From: a phage
Assembly: GCA_033696785.1 (NCBI GenBank)
Contig: GCA_033696785.1_4550.1
Strand: one strand, 5' to 3'
DNA: 39,327 bases
Shown: one piece after another, positions 16,800 to 36,124 of the stretch
Position numbering within the stretch: the first letter of the stretch is position 1
How the letters are laid out: the number at the start of each line of letters is the position of its first letter
Made by a program: the position numbers and the translations under genes
Notes under the pieces: model-generated
Seen by the model: the letters and a program-made list of their open reading frames with translations, nothing else
Databases searched by the model: none
Told to the model about the DNA's origin: nothing

Positions 16800-17027
16800 T
16801 TATGCTCCTACGAAATACTTCTCTTGGTTTACCAGAGAGTCTTTGCCTTCAGCGTTACGGAAAGCACCCTTGACACCACCGCCACGCTTGGTCTTGTTCA
16901 GCTTGCGGCCCTTCGGAATGTAATCTTCAGTCTGCTGACGTTCACGGATGCGCTCGAAGTTGATAGTGTTCTGATACATGTGGTTAAATCTCCAGTAGTT
17001 TACGTTAGGGTTAATCATGAAGGCCAC
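16800..17027 (-). CDS. gp1.1-like small basic protein
   Basis: Contains KGRKLNKTKR as in T7 gp1.1; the real start is probably an internal Met. Confidence 0.5.
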   Translation of the reverse strand: MAFMINPNVNYWRFNHMYQNTINFERIRERQQTEDYIPKGRKLNKTKRGGGVKGAFRNAEGKDSLVNQEKYFVGA

Positions 17028-17051
17028 GACTTTGAGTCATGACCTTGAGTC
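17020..17051 (-). promoter_or_regulatory. Candidate RNase III processing hairpin (R1.1 equivalent)
   Basis: AAGGCCACGACTTTGAGTCATGACCTTGAGTC just downstream of promoter 17052-17074. Confidence 0.4.
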
Positions 17052-17074
17052 TAATCCTATAGTGATAGTTTAGG
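17052..17074 (-). promoter_or_regulatory. Phage RNAP promoter (phi1.1 equivalent)
   Basis: Plus strand aatcctatagtgatagtttagg. Confidence 0.85.
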
Positions 17075-17148
17075 TTAACCTCTTCTTCGTTGGGTTAAAG
17101 TGAATACTGCGAGTGCTCCTAGCCACAAGGCCAGTAACTGTAAGTCTG

Positions 17149-17364
17149 TCATTTGGTCTGCTCCAGCTTGGACACTGCGTCTTTCAGGTATTTCTCGTGG
17201 CTGGATTCCACAAGATAGACGAGGGTCTTGAATGGTACGTTAAGCTGCTTTGACATTTCGGTAGGAATGACCGTGGTCTTCACCAGACCCTTGCCGTTGT
17301 GTTCTGTTACGGTCACGATTTGAGTCCCGCCCTTAACGCCAGCCTGCTTGTGTGCAAATTTCAT
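17149..17364 (-). CDS. Hypothetical protein, 71 aa
   Basis: Immediately after the RNAP gene. A 25-codon hydrophobic ORF (MTDLQLLALWLGALAVFTLTQRRRG) follows with an ATGA overlap. Confidence 0.5.
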   Translation of the reverse strand: MKFAHKQAGVKGGTQIVTVTEHNGKGLVKTTVIPTEMSKQLNVPFKTLVYLVESSHEKYLKDAVSKLEQTK

Positions 17365-17378
17365 AACTCTCTCTCCTG

Positions 17379-20060
17379 TTAAGCGAATGCAAAGTCTGAA
17401 GACAAGATGTCTTCGATATTCAGTTTACCTTTCTTCGGAAGCTCAGGCAACTTGTCGCGCTGGCTCTCGTGAAGCTGGTATTCAAACTGCTCGTAGAAGT
17501 CAAGCAGCACATCGTTGTCGCGGTAGGTCTCGACCATCGTCTCACGGACACCACGGAACAGATACTCAGCGTCAGCCGGGATGGTCCCGAAGCTATCGTG
17601 AATCACTGCGAACGACATCACGCCATACTTGCGGTGAGTGTGGACTACAGTCTTGCGGAGGTGGCTACCATCTTGTGAGTGGACGAAGTTCGGGCTAATG
17701 CCTGACTCCTGCTTGTGCTTGTCAAGCTCTTTCTTCGTTCCTTTGTTGACTGTAGGCTGAAGGTTGAATGACCCTAAGAACATCAGGTTCAGACGAGTGG
17801 TATCCTTCTTGCGGTATTCCTGCCATACCGGGAAGCCATCAGGTGTTACCCAGTGAACCGGAAGGCATGGCTTAAGGATTTCTCCAGTCTTCTTGTCCTT
17901 CACTTCAGCAGCCAGCAGCTTGGCGGCACCTTGAAGCCACTTCATAGCGTCTACCGCAGCAACTACGGTCACACTCACAGCTTCCCAAATCATCTTAGCC
18001 ATGAAGCGAGACGCTTGGCTTGGCTCGGTGAACATAGCGCCAGACCCTGAGTCAATCGCTGGCATCACGATGTCCTCATAAACTTGGTCTGCGAAGCCAT
18101 ACTCTTTCGACCCATAGGCCAGAGTCATGACTGAACGCTTAGTGACCTTGCGTGACATACCGTAAGTCAGCCACTGCCGGGCCAGCTCTCGTGTCCCCAG
18201 CTTGAGACGTTCGGTAATCTCACCAGTTTTCTTGTCCTCGTGAGTTACCATCTCGTTGTCCGTGCCGTTAACCAGCAGGACTTTAAGCTCTTCCTCAATG
18301 CGGTCTGACACGATTCGGTAGATGTCTTGGACCTTACCGGAAGGCGTCAGGTTTACTGCATGTCCACCGATGTGATCACGAAGCATTGCGCTAAAGTGCT
18401 GAATCCCAGAGCAGGACCCATCGAATGCTATCGGCAGCGAGCAGGAGTAAGACAATCCGTGATGCATTACGCCAGCATACTCGAAGCAGAACGCTAGGAA
18501 GCAGAACGGAGAGTCTAACTTTCCCCACCACTCAATGCTGTCCATCGGTGCCTTAGCGGTAGCCATGATGTTGTCGTGGTTATCTTCCACCCACTTGATT
18601 CGCTCCTCGAAGGTTACTTTATCAATGCCCGCACAGTTTGCACCGTGGACCTTCAGCCATTTGAAACCATCAGCACCAATAGGCTTACCGACTGCCAGAG
18701 TCAGAAGACCCTTTTGCATGTCGTTACCCTGAGGGTTGAACATCGGCACAGCGTAGACGCGACCGCGCCAGTCCATGTTGTACGGAAACCAGATAGCCTT
18801 GAACTGAGAGAACTTGTTCGCTTGGTTAACGATAAAGCTCAGTGACAATCTACGTGACTGCCGGGCCTTCTCTCGGCGGTAGATACCAGCAGCAGCCTTC
18901 TTCCATGCCTTGAGTTCCTCTTCAGTCTCACCCGCATAGTCTTCAGGCTTCAGTGGCTCCATCTGAGGGATGTCGTCAATAGGCGTGTTGTTCAACTTCT
19001 CGACCATGTTCACCACGTCCAGAACCTTCTTGTTCACTTTCCAAGGTGTATTCTGGATGATGTTGACAGCGTCATAGACTTCAGGCATGTACACGTCTTC
19101 GTAACGTGCCACCGCAGACTTAGACCCTAAGCGAATCAATGGTAACGGTCTGCGACCTTTGGCCCAGTACCCACCGCCTACGACACCCGTCCACGGCTTA
19201 GGTGGAACGACGCAAGGCTGATAGACTGGTGCGATACCCGCAAGGCTGAATCCACGTTGTGCCATCTTCTTGACCCAGAAGCCTGACAGGTGGACCATCT
19301 CAACATCAGCCGCTGCATTGCCAGCACCATAACGCTTAAGCTCGACAAGTTGTGTTGACTGGATGACAATCTCAAGCATCTTGATGCCAACATGGACCGC
19401 CTCGGTCGGACTCCAAGTTCCCCACGCATCTTCCAGTTGACCCTGCTCCAGCATGGAGGCCTCAACCGCTTGCATGTAGGCTTTCTTGTAGGATGACCCA
19501 GCTCGCTTGTTCAGGTTCTCAGCTATCGCCTTCTTGAAGTGCTCCTTCTCCTTGTCACGGATGCGACCGAAGCGGATTTCGTCCTCAAGTGTGCGACCTA
19601 TCGCTGAGGCCATCGGTGTAATCGGTATCCCTTCAGGCTTGACCAGCTTGGAGAGGATGACCTTCAGTATAATAACTGCAGCAGACTCGCAAGAGATACG
19701 CAGAGAGCGGTCCTTGACGGCCTTCTCTTCAGTGCTCAACATGGTGAACGCTACGCTAGGACGAGAGGTTGACAGCTTCCCGTCTGGACCTTCATGCCAC
19801 TCCCTGACGGCTTGCGCAATCTTAGGGACCAGAGTCTGCATCAAAGGCTTGGCTACCTGATTGTCTGCCAGTTCCCCGCGCTCAGTCTGTCGCTCAAGGT
19901 TTTTGATGAAACGTCGCTCGCCTTCAGTGTATGCCTCATGCTCAAGCTGAAGCTGTTTGACTGCAAGATCTTGCCCGTAGTGGTCAGCCAGCAGGTTAAA
20001 CGGCTCAATGGCGTTCGACACATCAGAGAAGTCGTGTTTGTCAATAGAGATGACGCTCAT
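17379..20060 (-). CDS. Single-subunit DNA-dependent RNA polymerase (T7 gp1 homolog)
   Basis: 893 aa colinear with T7 RNAP, including catalytic motifs and C-terminal FAFA. Specificity-loop region reads FNLQPTVNKGTKKELDKHKQ (T7: FRLQPTINTNKDSEIDAHKQ). Confidence 0.98.
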   Translation of the reverse strand: MSVISIDKHDFSDVSNAIEPFNLLADHYGQDLAVKQLQLEHEAYTEGERRFIKNLERQTERGELADNQVAKPLMQTLVPKIAQAVREWHEGPDGKLSTSRPSVAFTMLSTEEKAVKDRSLRISCESAAVIILKVILSKLVKPEGIPITPMASAIGRTLEDEIRFGRIRDKEKEHFKKAIAENLNKRAGSSYKKAYMQAVEASMLEQGQLEDAWGTWSPTEAVHVGIKMLEIVIQSTQLVELKRYGAGNAAADVEMVHLSGFWVKKMAQRGFSLAGIAPVYQPCVVPPKPWTGVVGGGYWAKGRRPLPLIRLGSKSAVARYEDVYMPEVYDAVNIIQNTPWKVNKKVLDVVNMVEKLNNTPIDDIPQMEPLKPEDYAGETEEELKAWKKAAAGIYRREKARQSRRLSLSFIVNQANKFSQFKAIWFPYNMDWRGRVYAVPMFNPQGNDMQKGLLTLAVGKPIGADGFKWLKVHGANCAGIDKVTFEERIKWVEDNHDNIMATAKAPMDSIEWWGKLDSPFCFLAFCFEYAGVMHHGLSYSCSLPIAFDGSCSGIQHFSAMLRDHIGGHAVNLTPSGKVQDIYRIVSDRIEEELKVLLVNGTDNEMVTHEDKKTGEITERLKLGTRELARQWLTYGMSRKVTKRSVMTLAYGSKEYGFADQVYEDIVMPAIDSGSGAMFTEPSQASRFMAKMIWEAVSVTVVAAVDAMKWLQGAAKLLAAEVKDKKTGEILKPCLPVHWVTPDGFPVWQEYRKKDTTRLNLMFLGSFNLQPTVNKGTKKELDKHKQESGISPNFVHSQDGSHLRKTVVHTHRKYGVMSFAVIHDSFGTIPADAEYLFRGVRETMVETYRDNDVLLDFYEQFEYQLHESQRDKLPELPKKGKLNIEDILSSDFAFA

Positions 20061-20129
20061 ACTTAAAGTCCTTGTTATTAGTCTTTCACTTAAAGTCTCT
20101 TTGGTCTTTCACTTGGAGTCTTAGACCTT

Positions 20130-20152
20130 GAGTCCTATAGTGATAGTTAAGT
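20130..20152 (-). promoter_or_regulatory. Phage RNAP promoter directly upstream of the RNAP gene
   Basis: Plus strand agtcctatagtgatagttaagt; +1 about 70 nt upstream of the RNAP start codon. Confidence 0.7.
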
Positions 20153-20157
20153 CAGAA

Positions 20158-20484
20158 TCACTTGCATATCAGTGGGTTAGCGTGAAGACGACTGAAGTCA
20201 CCATGAGTCGTGTGCTTGATGGATGACCGTTGGTCTATCGCCTTCCAGCCTGAGACCAGAAGTTTACCATCGTCAGTGATTGGTCGTCCACCATACGCCA
20301 GACACATCAGCTCGGACTTATGGCCCTCAGCCCGGAGTCTTGCTTGCAGTACCCGGTCCCTCTCCTGCTGTTGACGTGCGGAGTGACTTGACGTTCCGTG
20401 ACGATACCCGGTAGCCAGTAGGCTTAACATTTGCATGTCTGCGTCCATAGAGTGTACCAGATTAATCCCGTATGACTTGTTCAT
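20158..20484 (-). CDS. Hypothetical early protein, 108 aa
   Basis: Occupies the T7 gp0.4-0.7 region but has no kinase motifs. Confidence 0.55.
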   Translation of the reverse strand: MNKSYGINLVHSMDADMQMLSLLATGYRHGTSSHSARQQQERDRVLQARLRAEGHKSELMCLAYGGRPITDDGKLLVSGWKAIDQRSSIKHTTHGDFSRLHANPLICK

Positions 20485-20681
20485 TACAGTTTGCTCCCAA
20501 GAGTTGCTATATCCCAGACGTTCGCTAAGTTGCGCATGAATCGTCCGTTAGGTTGACGTACAGTCCAGCGGCCCAGACGTACATAGTTGAATTTGTAGAC
20601 TTTACGTGCCTTGTTGATGTCTCTCACTAGCACGTAGGCGATAAGTCCATAGCCTATGACTATCAATAGTGCAAGACTCAT
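20484..20681 (-). CDS. Small early membrane protein, 65 aa
   Basis: N-terminal hydrophobic helix (LALLIVIGYGLIAYVLV) then a basic tail. Confidence 0.5.
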   Translation of the reverse strand: MSLALLIVIGYGLIAYVLVRDINKARKVYKFNYVRLGRWTVRQPNGRFMRNLANVWDIATLGSKL

Positions 20682-20771
20682 AGTGATTTCCGTTTAATAC
20701 AGTCGTATATCCCATAGCCTATCATCCAGATAACTGGCGCTAAGCATACCCAATGTCCCACACTCATAGTT
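20682..20771 (-). CDS. Small early hydrophobic peptide, about 29 aa
   Basis: Hand-translated MSVGHWVCLAPVIWMIGYGIYDCIKRKSL with AGGAG RBS; stop overlaps the next start. Not in the ORF track. Confidence 0.3.
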
Positions 20772-20957
20772 AACTCCTATTAATGCAAGTGGTAATCTTT
20801 GAGGCCACCTATCAGTCGATGACCTCTAGTTTATCACTCGCGCAATTAGTAACCACCCGTCAGCGTTATGGTCAGGCTCTGGTGATTAGCCACGTAGCAA
20901 GCCCCGCGCCTCATCATCTCGTAGCACCCCCTCGTAAAACGCCTGCTCACTGCTATA

Positions 20958-21130
20958 AGTTATCTGGTACATGTGTACTTGTCCTCATCGTGTAAACTGT
21001 CGTGAATACGTTTGCGGCCCTCATAGACCGCCTTCAGGTGACGCATAGTCGCATCATGTTTTAACTGCCCGGTCTTGACCATAATCCGGGCGTTAGTGAC
21101 GTGGTGCTGGCAGAGACCATAAGTTACCAT
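20958..21130 (-). CDS. Small early protein, about 57 aa
   Basis: Hand-translated [22 protein letters not shown]...; start overlaps the Ocr stop (TGATGG). Not in the ORF track. Confidence 0.3.
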
Positions 21131-21462
21131 CACTCGCAGCCCTCTTCAGCCTCAAACCAGACCACATGAGAGCTATTAGACACATCGTTATACAGTGCCT
21201 CATAAATGCGAGCTTGCAGTATATGCGTCACGTCCTTGGTCTCAGGCATCATCCCAGAGTCCTCAAACTCGTGGTCAATACCATCAGCAGCCATTACCGT
21301 GAAAATCTCGTGGTAGTAGTGCGGAACCATATCGTCTACGACTTCATGCAGCGCATCTTGGTAGTCATCGCCTTCAGCTATTTCGTCGTACTGAATGCGC
21401 TCGTTAAATGCTTCAACAGTTGCAGCCAGCAGCTCATAGTATGCGTTAGCGTTACGTTTCAT
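21130..21462 (-). CDS. ocr: Ocr, DNA-mimic anti-restriction protein (T7 gp0.3 homolog)
   Basis: 110 aa, acidic, with [43 protein letters not shown] matching T7 Ocr. Confidence 0.88.
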
Positions 21463-21663
21463 TTGTATATCCTCTCAAAGTTGTTTGTGTATGTTAGTGA
21501 CTATCAGTCAGAGCCTTCAGATGTAGACTCAAAGACTCTGTAGTTAGTCGCTATCGGCGCACATTAAGAGTTTATCCAGATTGTTAAAGAGCATTCCCTT
21601 CAGTCAGAGGACTTCAGGTAGACCATTTCAGTGTTGGTCGTCACCGTTGTTTCGATGTGGTAC

Positions 21664-21693
21664 AGCTTACATCTTATAGTTACTGCTTGTCAA
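21664..21693 (-). promoter_or_regulatory. Candidate host sigma70 early promoter (T7 A2/A3-like)
   Basis: Minus strand TTGACA-N18-TAAGCT followed by GTACCACATCGAAAC, resembling the region after T7 A3. Confidence 0.45.
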
Positions 21694-21805
21694 CTACTTT
21701 CTGTCATCTGCCTGTTGTTCGTATGACTTATCAGGCTGTCTACTTAACCGGGATGACCCGGCGTCTTCACTATCCGGTTGTTGCCGTGTCGTGTTGACGG
21801 AAGCT

Positions 21806-21834
21806 ATTAAGCCATAGTCTAGACCTATAGTCAA
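21806..21834 (-). promoter_or_regulatory. Candidate host sigma70 early promoter (T7 A1-like)
   Basis: Minus strand TTGACT-N17-CTTAAT; the downstream AAGTAGACAGCCTGATAAGTC block is near-identical to T7 as recalled. Confidence 0.45.
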
Positions 21835-21944
21835 TAGGCAATCTTAAATAATATTGATTAAGCTATCGTCGGCCCCATGGTGTAAGAGGATATAGTCTTT
21901 GACTAACATGTCTTAGACCTTAAGTCTATAGCCTTGTGTCTATT

Positions 21945-22032
21945 AACTGTAGGTCTCTGACTGTAGGTAGCGGCATTACCGATGGTCGATGACTGTAGGT
22001 AGTTAGACTGTAGGTAGTTAGACTGTAGGTAG
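21945..22032. repeat. Short direct repeats (ACTGTAGGT core) in the terminal, non-coding region
   Basis: gactgtaggtag at about 21959, 21991, 22006, 22021 (last three tandem, 15-bp period), related copies at 21945, 22289, 22304, 22347. Analogous to the T7 ACCTAAAG arrays near the genome ends. Confidence 0.7.
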
Positions 22033-22487
22033 TGACTCAAGGTCTGATACAGATAGAGACTCAGAGAAGACCAATAGTCCCTACCTATCGTCCTGACCTC
22101 CAGCCATAGCCTAGACCTATCGTTTACCTAACGTCTTGACCATCGGTCCAACCTTATGATAGACTGGGGGTAGGGCCTTTGTCTGGACTGAAAGAGGGCC
22201 TATGGGGGGAGACTTGAGGTTCTTGAACTGTGAGATGTGGTCTCAAACTTTTGGTCCAAACTCATCGTCCCTGCCTTAAGGAACCAGCTACTGTAGGTCA
22301 AGGACCGTAGGTCTAAGACCATCGGATGACGACCAGTGAACCAATCAGTAGGTAGACCAGAAGTGAGAGCCTGAATGGTGTTACCTAAAGTCCTTGACTA
22401 CAGTAGCTAAGGTCAGTACGTGGATAAAGACTCACTCTACTGACCTTAGGTCTTCCGCTCATGAATCGTTACCATGATTGCGTTAAT

Positions 22488-22643
22488 TACACTGAGAGAC
22501 CAGAGAACATACGAGAGTCTCGACCCACCCGACCCACTTACTTCCAGCAGTAACGCCAGCAGCAAGTAGAACAGCAGCAAGAAACCTGTATGTAGCTCGA
22601 TTGGTCGCCAGAGCTTTAAGTACAGCTTTGGTCTTTGCCATAT
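22488..22643 (-). CDS. Small protein downstream of phiOR (gp19.5 position)
   Basis: About 51 aa hand-translated (MAKTKAVLKALATNRATYRFLAAVLLAAGV...) with GGAGGT RBS. Not in the ORF track. Confidence 0.35.
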
Positions 22644-22820
22644 GCTACATACCTCCTGTATCTATGGTCTTTACTATCTGTATTGGAGGGATTATGATTA
22701 ATATCACCCTCCTTCCATCGGTGCAAGCCTTAGGTAAGAACTCGGAGTCTACCTCCTAAGGTCTTGCATAAAGTCTGCATATGTATATTCACTACAGTAA
22801 TACTATAAGTAACCGGGGGT

Positions 22821-22843
22821 CTTCCCTATAGTGATAGTTAAGT
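22821..22843 (-). promoter_or_regulatory. Phage RNAP promoter (phiOR equivalent)
   Basis: Plus strand cttccctatagtgatagttaagt, about 95 nt past the terminase stop, firing toward the genome end. Confidence 0.8.
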
Positions 22844-22937
22844 CCAAACTCCTTGTAAAACAGTAGGTTAGGCTGGTAGTAACTATAGGTTACTAACTGC
22901 GTATTCATGCAGCTTTCACCTATAGTTATTCATTCAG

Positions 22938-24701
22938 CTAGTGGAACGTAACGTAGGACCCTAGCCCTAGCTCGTCGTCCGTATCATGAGTTACCCGGAC
23001 CCCATTGTCCCAGAACTCAGTGTGGATGGACTCGAAGCCTTTACGTGGGTTCTCCATCTGTTCCTCCAGCCACTCCTCAGTGACTTCACGTTCGCCTTTG
23101 TTGGCATCCTTAGCCATAGACTCAACGAAGAACTGTACACCGATAGCCAGCGCATCAAGTCGGTCATCGTGTGCCAAGGCTCCACGTTCGCGAGAGATAC
23201 GGGTCATCTGATAGAAGAGAGAGTAGATAGGGTTACGCACACCATCCTTGTCAGAGGCTGTCTGGTAGTCTTGGACGATAGCAGCAGCGTTAACGATAAG
23301 TCGGTGAGACCCCATGATAGGCTCCAGAACGTCACAGATGCGGAGTTCTTTCTGACCCTTACTCTTCACTTCAGTTACAGCAGCAGGATGGATACGGGCC
23401 GCTACAGGCTTGAATAGCTCAAGGTACATACCATCACCGAAGTTACCCTCAATGACGTATTCGTTTACCTTCCACTTACGACCAATCTTAGCCAATGCTT
23501 CCAGCGTAGAGTCTTCATAGCCACCTCGCATACCACCAACTTCCATAGCGAAGATGTAGCCGTTGAGCTGATACAGTACCGCATAGCCAGTTTCATCCTT
23601 ACCACGACCACTAGGGTCAATGACCAGAATCTTCTGGGTGTACGAACTGAAGGCAGAACCTACAGTCTGATACGTGTGGTATGAGTCACCCATGAGTCCA
23701 ACGTTAGGAACGTCCTCACGCTTGTTCTGAGGGTTTGGCAACCATTGGTAGACCATTGGGCTGGACGCTGGGTCCAAGTCGGCTACGATAAGGTCGCGGA
23801 GCTTCAGAGGGTACTTCTCAGCATCACTCAGGTTAGGGTTAAGCATGAACTGTAGAGCGAAGCCAGCTTTACCGTATGACAGCTCACGTTCCTTCAGGTC
23901 CGTATCATCGAATCGCACTTCATCGGTCGGACGCCAGTAGAAGGACTCAGGGTCCTCTTCCAGTTCTGCCTGAAGCATAGGCGCCAGACGGCCACCGTAA
24001 GACTGCCAGTCCTTCTTATCACGTGGATAACGAGCAGGCCAGATAGTAGTTGTGTACCCACGGCCTTCCAGCTCACGATACAGGGTCATCTCGTTCTGAG
24101 GAGTACCCAGATAGATGATTGTACCTCCCGGCTTCAGAATAGCGTCGAACTCTTTCACAAGCTCTGACAGACGGTCTCGTGCAGCCTGAGTCGCTGAGTT
24201 GTTTGGAACCTCCACGTCATCGGCAATCAGGATGTCAGCACGACTACCAGTCAACTGACCAGTGATACCAACAGACTTAACCGAAGGTGAGTGGTCTGGT
24301 TTGGCTGGTCCAACATCAAAGCTGATAACCGCATCTCGCTGCCCCTGCTTAGGTTTGAGTTCCTGAAGCTGAGGCATGAGGTCGATGATTCGCTTGATGA
24401 AGATGGAGTTAGCATCGGCTCGTTCCTTTGATGCCGACACAATCATGAACTTCAAGTCTGGGTTGTTCCATAGCTTCCAGACAACGAAGGCACACGTAAT
24501 GAAGGACTTCCCGATACCACGGAACGCCTGTAGGATGAAGCGCCTGTTGTCCCCAGCCGATAGTTTCTTCGCCATGTCAATCTGACAGCGAGTCGGGACT
24601 GGGAGTGACAGAGCTTTCCACAGGACGAACAGGAAGAACACGAAGTCTTCCTTCATACGTGTAGTCATTAGCGCCTGACGCGCCACTAAGTCTTTACTCA
24701 A
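22938..24701 (-). CDS. Terminase large subunit (T7 gp19 homolog)
   Basis: 587 aa with ATPase Walker A region (GIGKSF), DEAD-like ILIADDVE and a C-terminal nuclease domain. Confidence 0.97.
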
Positions 24702-36101: not shown

Positions 36102-36124
36102 TAGTCCCTATAGTGATAGTTAAG
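36102..36124 (-). promoter_or_regulatory. Phage RNAP promoter (phi13 equivalent) inside a 12-bp inverted repeat
   Basis: Plus strand gtccctatagtgatagttaagg, flanked by AAGGGCCTATAG (36092-36103) and CTATAGGCCCTT (36132-36143). Confidence 0.8.

What the first reader, a model, noticed from the sequence alone, without database searches (positions are those of the whole stretch)
20158..21130. Early region has Ocr but no protein kinase; uncharacterised small early proteins instead
Between Ocr and the RNAP gene, T7 carries 0.4-0.7 including the gp0.7 kinase. Here the same space holds a 108-aa protein, a 65-aa membrane protein, and two tiny ORFs (about 29 and 57 aa), none with kinase motifs. Early-region genes are typically host-takeover or anti-defence factors, so these are the best candidates for new functions in this genome.
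Basis: inference. Interest (0 to 1): 0.6.

Follow-up and report, generated by a model that had tools for sequence, protein, structure and literature searches.

The report
Ordinary kinase-less Kayfunavirus early gene block
This is the standard early-gene block of a K1F-like (T7-family) phage that, like about four in five of its relatives, lacks the optional protein-kinase cassette; two of its small genes belong to known T7/T3 early families, and only the 108-aa protein is a real unknown.

Summary
The window is a complete, circularly permuted Kayfunavirus (K1F-like) genome, and its genes lie on the minus strand. The four ORFs are real, sit where reported and evolve under purifying selection. No kinase or gp0.7 shut-off domain occurs anywhere in the window.

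- The "57-aa" ORF (really 56 aa, ATG at 21130) is a homologue of T7 gp0.4, the FtsZ inhibitor.
- The 65-aa membrane protein is a homologue of T3 gp0.6. That family also occurs in kinase-bearing T3, K11 and Kvp1.
Here it is frameshifted by an extra G, also in two other public assemblies of this phage, and it is intact in 18 of 18 relatives.
- The kinase is an optional 244-aa cassette, present in about 20% of relatives. It inserts at the 78-nt gap upstream of the 29-aa ORF. Hairpin repeats flank it, and the window keeps a single copy.
- The 108-aa protein is K1F gp0.38. It has no homology to any T7 early protein, a confident three-helix core and an invariant C-terminal tail. It is always the last gene before the RNA polymerase gene, in three phage genera.

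The function of the 108-aa protein is unknown. One weakly supported idea is that it stands in for the gp0.7 shut-off domain. Overall this is ordinary and of low interest.

The parts
21130..21462 (-). ocr (gene 0.3), short 110-aa form
   Evidence: Pfam PF08684 E 1.2e-30. phrog_2568. 51% identity to T7 gp0.3 by BLASTP.
20960..21130 (-). gp0.4-family gene (56 aa; K1F gp0.35); predicted FtsZ inhibitor
   Evidence: BLASTP against T7 gp0.4: 37% identity over 41 aa, E 1e-5. Reciprocal PHROG cross-hits to 5058, 7202 and 25044. The identical gene in L036 and L037 carries a precomputed PF26807 Phage_T7_GP04 hit. 75% identity to K1F gp0.35. Family alignment A4 has invariant Y4, G5, L6, M29, Y36 and K40.
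20846..20972 (-).
   Evidence: Intact as a 41-aa ORF in 18 of 18 relatives, with pN/pS 0.19. The same G5 run is present in public assemblies L036 and L037. DNA alignment.
20785..20841 (-). Stable RNA hairpin (candidate RNase III site) at the empty kinase-cassette site
   Evidence: Free energy -26.8 kcal/mol, z = -4.29, 0 of 200 shuffles as stable. In kinase-bearing relatives a copy flanks each side of the kinase cassette. No Rfam match.
20678..20767 (-). 29-aa hydrophobic peptide gene (positional analogue of T7 gp0.5)
   Evidence: Conserved length and hydrophobic pattern in 19 relatives, with pN/pS 0.30. Annotated as a transmembrane protein in phage EPr2. Its stop overlaps the next start (ATGA).
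20484..20681 (-). 65-aa membrane-anchored basic protein; T3 gp0.6 family (K1F gp0.37)
   Evidence: 40% identity to T3 gp0.6, E 1e-9. phrog_2385 E 3e-32. 686 phage records, including K11 gp0.6A and Kvp1 gp0.6. N-terminal transmembrane helix and pI 11.
20158..20484 (-). 108-aa protein, K1F gp0.38 family (phrog_7066); function unknown
   Evidence: phrog_7066 E 1e-43. 222 phage records. Only 14 clusters at 50% identity among 1.84 billion proteins. AlphaFold model of the core has pLDDT 79, with three helices and a low-confidence tail holding the invariant T..GDF.HL motif. Always directly upstream of gene 1. pN/pS 0.21.
20130..20152 (-). Phage-RNAP promoter-like sequence between the 108-aa gene and gene 1
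   Evidence: The core ACTATCACTATAG occurs 8 times on the minus strand of the window. The same position is annotated as a predicted promoter in CR8. It is conserved in K1F and shows low sequence entropy across relatives.
17379..20060 (-). Gene 1, T7-type single-subunit RNA polymerase (893 aa)
   Evidence: ORF. Annotated as RNA polymerase in all relatives. Pfam RPOL_N and RNA_pol hits on the identical gene in L036.

Best explanation
The interval is the canonical early (class I) gene block of a Kayfunavirus, a K1F-like T7-family podophage. Read on the minus strand, the order is:
1. ocr.
2. A gp0.4-family protein (56 aa).
3. A 41-aa gene, inactivated here by a +1 G insertion.
4. A hairpin that marks an empty cassette site.
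5. A 29-aa hydrophobic peptide.
6. A T3-gp0.6-family membrane-anchored basic protein (65 aa).
7. A gp0.38-family protein (108 aa).
8. A phage promoter.
9. Gene 1.

The kinase is missing because, in this clade, it is an optional 244-aa cassette. That cassette has the kinase domain only, without the shut-off domain. It sits between two copies of the hairpin, and this genome, like most of its genus, has one hairpin and no cassette.

Inferred functions:
- The 56-aa protein blocks Z-ring assembly by binding FtsZ, as T7 gp0.4 does.
- The 29- and 65-aa proteins act at the inner membrane. Their targets are unknown.
- The 108-aa protein is a small three-helix basic protein. It probably uses its invariant C-terminal tail (HT..GDF.HL..NPLI.K) to bind a partner conserved from Enterobacterales to Pseudomonas. 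That partner is most plausibly part of the transcription or nucleoid machinery.

What is shown: gene identities, homologies, synteny, purifying selection, kinase absence and the cassette structure. What is inferred: every biochemical activity, and early transcription itself.
For: - Genus identity: 225 phage records match the region at 80-95% nucleotide identity, nearly all Kayfunavirus. K1F itself carries genes 0.3, 0.35, 0.36, 0.37, 0.38 and 1 with no kinase.
- gp0.4 homology. K1F infection mislocalises FtsZ and blocks division (PMC9372555).
- T3 gp0.6 homology.
- Optional kinase: 9 of the 32 relatives' loci examined carry a 244-aa kinase, 8 of the 31 surveyed plus CR8. It lies immediately downstream of the 41-aa gene where that gene is present. 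Usually the 29-aa ORF follows it. In the phage collection, 48 records have this kinase at 60% identity or more, against 222 records with the 108-aa gene.
- Hairpin copies flank the cassette in relatives, and the window has a single copy.
- pN/pS is 0.19-0.32 for all the small genes.
- gp0.38 family: restricted to Kayfunavirus, Caroctavirus and Pifdecavirus, and always the last gene before gene 1. The AlphaFold core is confident (pLDDT 79). T92, G95, D96, F97 and L100 are invariant across members down to 34% identity.
Against: - No experiment or transcript data were available for this phage. Only one sigma-70-like promoter candidate (TTGACA, 18-nt spacer, TAAGCT at about 21693) was found upstream of ocr by pattern, and the stricter scan found none above chance.
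- gp0.4 homology is modest (37% over 41 aa), and the FtsZ-binding residues of T7 gp0.4 are not known to me.
- Synonymous diversity is unusually low across codons 55-108 and the promoter. Part of the conservation of the C-terminal half may therefore be a DNA-level effect or recent recombination.
Confidence: 0.8

Rival explanations
1. One reading: the four small proteins replace the kinase functionally, as new host-takeover or anti-defence factors peculiar to this genome.
For: - The 108-aa gene occupies the slot directly upstream of gene 1, where T7, T3, K11 and Kvp1 have gp0.7.
- T7 kinase is now known to be a broad anti-defence factor (PMC13645617), so a kinase-less phage might need substitutes.
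Against: - The 29-, 65- and 108-aa genes coexist with a kinase in about 20% of relatives.
- The 56- and 65-aa genes have homologues in kinase-bearing T7 and T3.
- The block is genus-wide and has been present in public K1F records for years.
- There is no hit to any PADLOC model.
Confidence: 0.12
2. The 108-aa gp0.38-family protein is a free-standing functional counterpart of the gp0.7 C-terminal shut-off (SO) domain. On this reading it is a basic helical protein that binds DNA or the host transcription machinery and helps shut off host transcription.
For: - Same position: the last coding sequence before gene 1.
- Kayfunavirus and Caroctavirus kinases are SO-less, at 242-244 aa.
- Complementary distribution in the loci examined. 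The SO HMM hits only T7, T3, K11 and Kvp1, and the gp0.38 HMM hits only Kayfunavirus, Caroctavirus and Pifdecavirus loci. None of 60 evenly sampled T3-SO tblastn hits is a recognisable Kayfunavirus, judged by record names.
- The protein is basic (pI 9.6-9.8) and helical.
- It is retained in Pseudomonas phages whose other early genes differ completely, which points to a broadly conserved target.
Against: - No detectable homology: hhalign probability 0.45-0.5%.
- It is much less basic than the SO domain (net charge +5 against +11).
- The loci were selected for having gp0.38, so the apparent exclusivity is partly circular.
- No DNA-binding fold was recognised. A weak HMG-box hit (E 0.54) was not supported by structure search.
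Confidence: 0.18
3. The 108-aa protein is an anti-defence protein. It would neutralise a host immune protein through its conserved C-terminal peptide.
For: - It is an early gene next to ocr-type functions.
- It is a small protein with a variable N-terminal module in three length classes, 83-88, 108 and 127-139 aa. Such variation is typical of arms-race proteins.
- Its conserved short tail is predicted to be unstructured.
Against: - The core is strongly conserved and near-universal across three genera and host orders. Most anti-defence genes are patchy accessory genes.
- It has fixed synteny with gene 1.
- It is absent from the supplements of an accessory-gene screen and from PADLOC.
Confidence: 0.2
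4. The tiny ORFs (29 aa, and 41 or 28 aa) are not genes. Their conservation would reflect overlapping RNA or DNA signals.
For: - They are very short.
- The 41-aa ORF is broken in this phage, apparently without loss of viability.
- A strong hairpin lies between them.
Against: - pN/pS is 0.19 for the 41-aa ORF and 0.30 for the 29-aa ORF, with high synonymous divergence (pS 0.38-0.62).
- Length, start and stop are conserved, each has a Shine-Dalgarno sequence, and the 29-aa ORF overlaps the next start as ATGA.
- The 29-aa peptide keeps its hydrophobic pattern at only 55% identity.
Confidence: 0.05

Closest known systems
Escherichia phage K1F early region (genes 0.3, 0.35, 0.36, 0.37, 0.38, 1; AM084414 / NC_007456)
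   Same: Same gene order and no kinase. Identities to the window are gp0.3 92%, gp0.35 76%, gp0.37 95%, and gp0.38 74% over its 86 aa. K1F has the same phage promoter between 0.38 and gene 1.
   Different: K1F has the long 169-aa Ocr. In place of the 41-aa and 29-aa ORFs it has a 55-aa membrane protein (0.36). Its gp0.38 is the short 86-aa form with a different N-terminus.
T7 gp0.4 (FtsZ inhibitor; Pfam PF26807 Phage_T7_GP04)
   Same: About 50 aa, immediately downstream of gene 0.3. It shares the YGL...M...LK..YE..K pattern at 37% identity.
   Different: The window protein is basic (pI 9.4), whereas T7 gp0.4 is acidic (pI 4.7). It also has a 5-residue C-terminal extension caused by a TAA-to-TAC change. 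FtsZ binding is untested.
T3 gp0.6 / phiYeO3-12 gp0.6A / K11 gp0.6A / Kvp1 gp0.6 (phrog_2385)
   Same: 65 aa, with an N-terminal transmembrane helix and a basic C-terminal part. 40% identity to T3 gp0.6.
   Different: In T3-like phages the gene lies upstream of the kinase. Here it lies upstream of gp0.38. The function of the family is unknown. It is not related to T7 gp0.6, the MreB inhibitor; no BLASTP hit at E up to 10, and the two fall in different PHROGs.
T7 gp0.7 (protein kinase plus shut-off domain)
   Same: The 108-aa gene holds the same map position, the last gene before gene 1.
   Different: No kinase or SO similarity exists anywhere in the window. Relatives that do have a kinase carry it as a 244-aa SO-less cassette further upstream.
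T7/T3 RNase III processing sites (R0.3, R0.5, R1)
   Same: An imperfect hairpin in an intergenic gap of the early operon. T3 has R0.5 at the equivalent place, between 0.3 and 0.6.
   Different: Cleavage was not tested and there is no Rfam model. Here the hairpin copies also bracket exchangeable gene cassettes.

Membership tests
T7 gp0.4 family (PF26807 Phage_T7_GP04) | Significant sequence similarity to T7 gp0.4 | tested here: met
   BLASTP E 1e-5, 37% identity over 41 aa. Both proteins hit phrog_5058, 7202 and 25044 reciprocally. The identical gene in L036 and L037 carries a precomputed PF26807 hit. The local Pfam copy lacks this model.
T7 gp0.4 family (PF26807 Phage_T7_GP04) | About 50-aa protein encoded directly downstream of gene 0.3 | tested here: met
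   56 aa. Its ATG overlaps the ocr stop codon.
T7 gp0.4 family (PF26807 Phage_T7_GP04) | Binds FtsZ and blocks Z-ring assembly | not testable with these tools
   Indirect only: K1F infection mislocalises FtsZ (PMC9372555).
T7 gp0.7 protein kinase | Kinase domain (phrog_2828 / 15752) present in the genome | tested here: not met
   tblastn of T7 gp0.7 against the whole window gives a best E of 0.33. In a 6-kb segment of the window (17000-23000), tblastn with the Kayfunavirus kinase at E up to 1e-3 gave no hit, although it hit 8 other loci.
T7 gp0.7 protein kinase | C-terminal shut-off (SO) domain | tested here: not met
   The SO HMM gives no hit in the window's six-frame translation. hhalign of the 108-aa family against the SO alignment gives probability 0.45%.
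T3 gp0.6 family (phrog_2385) | Sequence similarity to T3 gp0.6 | tested here: met
   40% identity over 63 aa, E 1e-9. phrog_2385 E 3.2e-32. tblastn hits K11 gp0.6A and Kvp1 gp0.6.
T3 gp0.6 family (phrog_2385) | Single N-terminal transmembrane helix followed by a basic tail | tested here: met
   Kyte-Doolittle 2.44 over residues 1-19 and pI 11.0. The CR8 homologue is annotated with a TMHMM helix at residues 4-22.
K1F gp0.38 family (phrog_7066) | Sequence similarity to K1F gp0.38, including the C-terminal HT..GDF.HL motif | tested here: met
   phrog_7066 E 1.1e-43. 74% identity to K1F gp0.38. The invariant columns are present in the window protein.
K1F gp0.38 family (phrog_7066) | Last gene before the phage RNA polymerase gene | tested here: met
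   True in the window and in every locus examined that extends to the RNA polymerase gene. These include CR8 and two Pifdecavirus phages.
Ocr (PF08684) | Pfam ocr domain above the gathering score | tested here: met
   106.3 bits against a cut-off of 25.
HMG-box DNA-binding domain (considered for the 108-aa protein) | Significant profile or fold match to an HMG box | tested here: not met
T7-type RNase III processing site | Stable imperfect hairpin in an early intergenic region, cleaved by RNase III | tested here: inconclusive
   The hairpin is stable (z = -4.29) and positionally analogous to T3 R0.5. Cleavage cannot be tested here.

The most novel reading that the evidence does not exclude
The gp0.38 family, represented here by the 108-aa protein, may be a previously unrecognised core early factor of the Kayfunavirus, Caroctavirus and Pifdecavirus lineages. 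On this reading it does the job of the gp0.7 shut-off domain as a separate polypeptide. Its invariant C-terminal tail would bind the host transcription or nucleoid machinery, or the phage's own RNA polymerase. That would explain why the gene is fixed next to gene 1 while every other early gene turns over.
Probability: 0.15. Interest if true: 0.55.

Novelty: already known. Interest (0 to 1): 0.25.

Why it matters
Mostly it does not matter. The block is the normal early region of a well-sampled phage genus. Identical sequence is already in public assemblies, and two of the 'unknowns' belong to named T7/T3 early families.

Three small points have some value.
- T7 kinase has recently been shown to be a broad anti-defence weapon, and about 80% of Kayfunaviruses do without it. 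Pairs of near-identical phages with and without the hairpin-flanked kinase cassette are natural controls for what the kinase buys a phage.
- gp0.38 is a compact, conserved early protein of unknown function, fixed next to the RNA polymerase gene in phages of Enterobacterales and Pseudomonas. It is a reasonable target for a first functional study.
- The 56-aa gene offers a basic, divergent gp0.4 variant for work on FtsZ inhibition.

Tried and rejected
1. Homology of the 108-aa protein to T7 gp0.7 or its SO domain was rejected. BLASTP E values were at least 0.14, and hhalign gave probabilities of 0.5% and 0.45%.
2. The first AlphaFold run on the full 108 aa with 15 close homologues was unusable (pLDDT 47). 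The core with 22 more diverse sequences gave pLDDT 79.
3. Fold searches of that model were uninformative.
   - Foldseek on PDB: best E 3.8.
   - BFVD: only family members.
4. The HMG-box idea came from a PDB profile hit to SOX-5 (E 0.54). No structure search supported it, so it was dropped.
5. A zinc-binding motif suggested by the His and Cys residues was rejected. The cysteines are not conserved (C61 to R or S, C107 to Y).
6. Pfam, PADLOC and Rfam gave nothing for the unknown ORFs or for the region.
7. The exhaustive profile search of 1.84 billion proteins found only 14 clusters, all in the same family.
8. The supplements of the phage accessory-gene screen (bioRxiv 10.1101/2023.04.06.535777) contain none of these sequences. 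No paper mentions 'gp0.38'. The K1F genome paper (PMC1317022) is not held in the library.
9. Sequencing or assembly error as the cause of the 41-aa frameshift is unlikely. The same G5 run is present in two other public assemblies. Those could still be the same isolate.
10. The word-indexed protein search with the T7 SO domain returned only 9 proteins. The SO profile was therefore built from T7, T3, K11, Kvp1 and two of those hits.
Full report
**What the window is.** All long ORFs lie on the minus strand. They include a T7-type RNA polymerase (17379-20060) and a terminase (22938-24701). The 1.6 kb around the finding matches 225 phage records at 80-95% nucleotide identity, almost all in the genus Kayfunavirus (K1F-like Studiervirinae). 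The window is therefore a complete, circularly permuted Kayfunavirus genome. The identical 1.6-kb region is already in two public assemblies, Logan SRR24462273 and GCA_013181095.1.

Three pairs are linked by overlapping stop and start codons:
- ocr to the 56-aa gene, TGATG.
- The 29-aa to the 65-aa gene, ATGA.
- The 65-aa to the 108-aa gene, TAATG.

The real start of the '57-aa' ORF is the ATG at 21130, as in relatives.

All the ORFs are conserved in relatives and evolve under purifying selection, with pN/pS of 0.19-0.32. For comparison, the RNA polymerase N-terminus gives 0.07. One caveat is that the segments were picked by tblastn, which biases pN downward.

No kinase exists anywhere in the window. 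tblastn with T7 gp0.7 gives a best E of 0.33, and an HMM of the gp0.7 shut-off domain finds nothing.

Relatives annotate a 41-aa ORF (MYQITYSSEQAFYDGCYEMM...TGGY) between the gp0.4-like gene and the 29-aa gene. In the window it lies at 20846-20972 and is frameshifted by an extra G in the run at 20927-20931. The same lesion is in both other public assemblies. The gene is intact in 18 of 18 other loci.

**What the genes are.**
- *The 56-aa protein* is a homologue of T7 gp0.4.
  - BLASTP gives 37% identity over 41 aa, E 1e-5.
  - Both proteins hit the same three PHROGs reciprocally.
  - The identical gene in L036 and L037 carries a precomputed Pfam PF26807 'Phage_T7_GP04' hit. The local Pfam copy lacks that model.
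  - It is K1F gp0.35 (76% identity). The CR44b and CR8 records already label it '0.4'.
  - T7 gp0.4 binds FtsZ and blocks division, and K1F infection mislocalises FtsZ (PMC9372555).
- *The 65-aa protein* is K1F gp0.37 (95%) and a homologue of T3 gp0.6 (40% identity, E 1e-9).
  - The family is found in 686 phage records. They include K11 gp0.6A and Kvp1 gp0.6, where it sits beside the kinase.
  - It has an N-terminal transmembrane helix and a very basic remainder (pI 11).
  - It is unrelated to T7 gp0.6.
- *The 29-aa ORF* is a hydrophobic peptide. It keeps its length and hydrophobic pattern at 55% identity. It is the positional analogue of the small membrane protein T7 gp0.5.
- *The 108-aa protein* is K1F gp0.38 (phrog_7066, E 1e-43).

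**The kinase is an optional cassette.** The surveyed set of 31 loci comprised the window itself and 30 loci from relatives. Eight of these carry a 244-aa kinase-domain-only gene (phrog_15752), and CR8 carries a ninth copy. The kinase lies immediately downstream of the 41-aa gene where that gene is present. It is usually followed by the 29-aa ORF or, failing that, by the 0.36-like or 65-aa gene. The window has a 78-nt gap at that place.

In the phage collection, 48 records have this kinase at 60% identity or more, against 222 records with the 108-aa gene. About four in five relatives are therefore kinase-less, as is K1F itself.

The gap folds into a stable hairpin at 20785-20841 (-26.8 kcal/mol, z = -4.3). 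It resembles T7/T3 RNase III sites, and T3 has R0.5 at the equivalent place. In kinase-bearing relatives a copy of this hairpin lies on each side of the kinase. In L017 a further copy also flanks an extra gene. The window has one copy. Gain or loss of the cassette by recombination between hairpin copies is the simplest reading, but this is an inference.

**The 108-aa protein.**
- *Distribution.* The family is narrow. There are 136 clusters at 90% identity, none carrying a precomputed Pfam domain. Only 14 clusters at 50% identity turned up among 1.84 billion proteins.
- *Host range and synteny.* The family nevertheless spans Kayfunavirus, Caroctavirus CR8 (annotated '0.38') and Pseudomonas Pifdecavirus phages. 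In every locus that extends to the RNA polymerase gene, it is the last gene before it. This holds even where the rest of the early region is entirely different.
- *Sequence pattern.* The N-terminus varies, with forms of 83-88, 108 and 127-139 aa. The C-terminal 80 or so residues are conserved. T92, G95, D96, F97 and L100 are invariant down to 34% identity.
- *Structure.* AlphaFold on the core gave pLDDT 79. The model has three helices (residues 32-52, 56-63 and 71-88) and a low-confidence tail that holds the invariant motif.
- *No informative match.* No solved or predicted structure of known function resembles the model. Pfam, PADLOC and PDB sequence searches were empty.
- *Not related to gp0.7.* hhalign gives probabilities of 0.5% and 0.45%.
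- *Selection.* Third-codon-position diversity drops sharply over codons 55-108 and the adjacent promoter. pN/pS there is still 0.22, and distant homologues keep the motif. Selection at the protein level is therefore real. A DNA-level constraint or recent recombination may add to the conservation.

**A hypothesis for gp0.38.**
- T7, T3, K11 and Kvp1 end their early block with gp0.7, whose C-terminal shut-off domain binds DNA (PMC13645617).
- The kinases of Kayfunavirus and Caroctavirus lack that domain.
- In the loci at hand, shut-off domain and gp0.38 never co-occur. None of 60 evenly sampled T3 shut-off-domain hits is a recognisable Kayfunavirus, judged by record names.
- gp0.38 is basic and helical.

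It may therefore be a separate-polypeptide counterpart of the shut-off domain. I put this at 15-20%. There is no homology, the sampling is partly circular, and an anti-defence role or a role tied to the phage polymerase is equally open.

**Comparison with known systems, and verdict.** The block maps onto the T7/T3 early region gene by gene:

| Window | T7/T3 counterpart |
|---|---|
| ocr | T7 gene 0.3 |
| 56-aa gene | T7 gene 0.4 |
| 29-aa peptide | positional analogue of T7 gene 0.5 |
| 65-aa gene | T3 gene 0.6 |
| 108-aa gene (gp0.38) | occupies the gene 0.7 position |

It is near-identical in layout to K1F, whose records annotate these genes.

The finding is ordinary. The only real unknown of some interest is gp0.38.

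Noticed in passing
window 20846-20972 (-), G run at 20927-20931: A 41-aa early gene is intact in 18 of 18 relatives but frameshifted here by one extra G. The same lesion is in two other public assemblies of this phage (L036, L037). Upstream, the gp0.4-like gene has lost its usual TAA stop (now TAC) and runs 5 codons into this gene.
   Followed up: yes
window 20785-20841 (-); L010, L017, L024, L025, L041: A stable hairpin (z = -4.3) sits at the empty kinase site. In relatives, copies of it bracket the kinase cassette, and in L017 an extra gene as well. It looks like an RNase III-type site that doubles as a recombination junction for early-gene cassettes.
   Followed up: partly
window 20130-20152 (-); also cores at 36120, 28405, 22838, 17069, 5165, 2344, 1338: A phage-polymerase promoter sequence (TTAACTATCACTATAGG) lies directly upstream of the polymerase's own gene, as annotated in CR8 and present in K1F. 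T7 has no phage promoter there. This would allow positive autoregulation of gene 1. The 97-nt leader that follows carries three copies of GACTTTAAGT-like repeats but no unusually stable fold (z = -0.8).
   Followed up: partly
window 20158-20320 (-) and adjacent promoter: Synonymous (third-position) diversity across 28 relatives falls from about 1.0 bit to 0.25-0.4 bit over codons 55-108 of the 108-aa gene and stays low through the promoter. This suggests a DNA- or RNA-level constraint or a recently homogenised segment.
   Followed up: partly
window 21130-21462 (-): Ocr here is the short 110-aa form, as in phage Peacock. K1F, EPr2 and CHX131 have a 168-169-aa form with about 60 extra residues inserted before the shared C-terminal EDCE. 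Several relatives lack ocr altogether, and one (phage B1, from the literature) has a SAM lyase there instead. Some GenBank records mislabel Ocr as 'protein kinase' (MH400309, LT594300).
   Followed up: no
window 21694-21909 (-): The ORF annotated as gp0.1 in K1F (71 aa) is split into 21-aa and 46-aa pieces here. It overlaps the region holding the only strong sigma-70-like promoter candidate (TTGACA, 18-nt spacer, TAAGCT at about 21693). It is probably not a gene.
   Followed up: no
window 21991-22030 (-): About 2.7 tandem copies of a 15-nt unit (ACCTACAGTCTAACT) lie in the non-coding stretch between gene 19.5 and ocr. They resemble the '(acctacagtcaac)3' repeat annotated near the left end of phage CR8. 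This is probably part of the genome-end or concatemer-junction region.
   Followed up: no
L023, L024, L027 (relatives), between the 65-aa and gp0.38 homologues: Some kinase-bearing relatives have about 400 nt between the 65-aa gene and the conserved gp0.38 core. This implies either a further inserted gene or the long N-terminal gp0.38 variants (127-139 aa, with a FTDKNGVEW..GRNYWEKTG insert).
   Followed up: no
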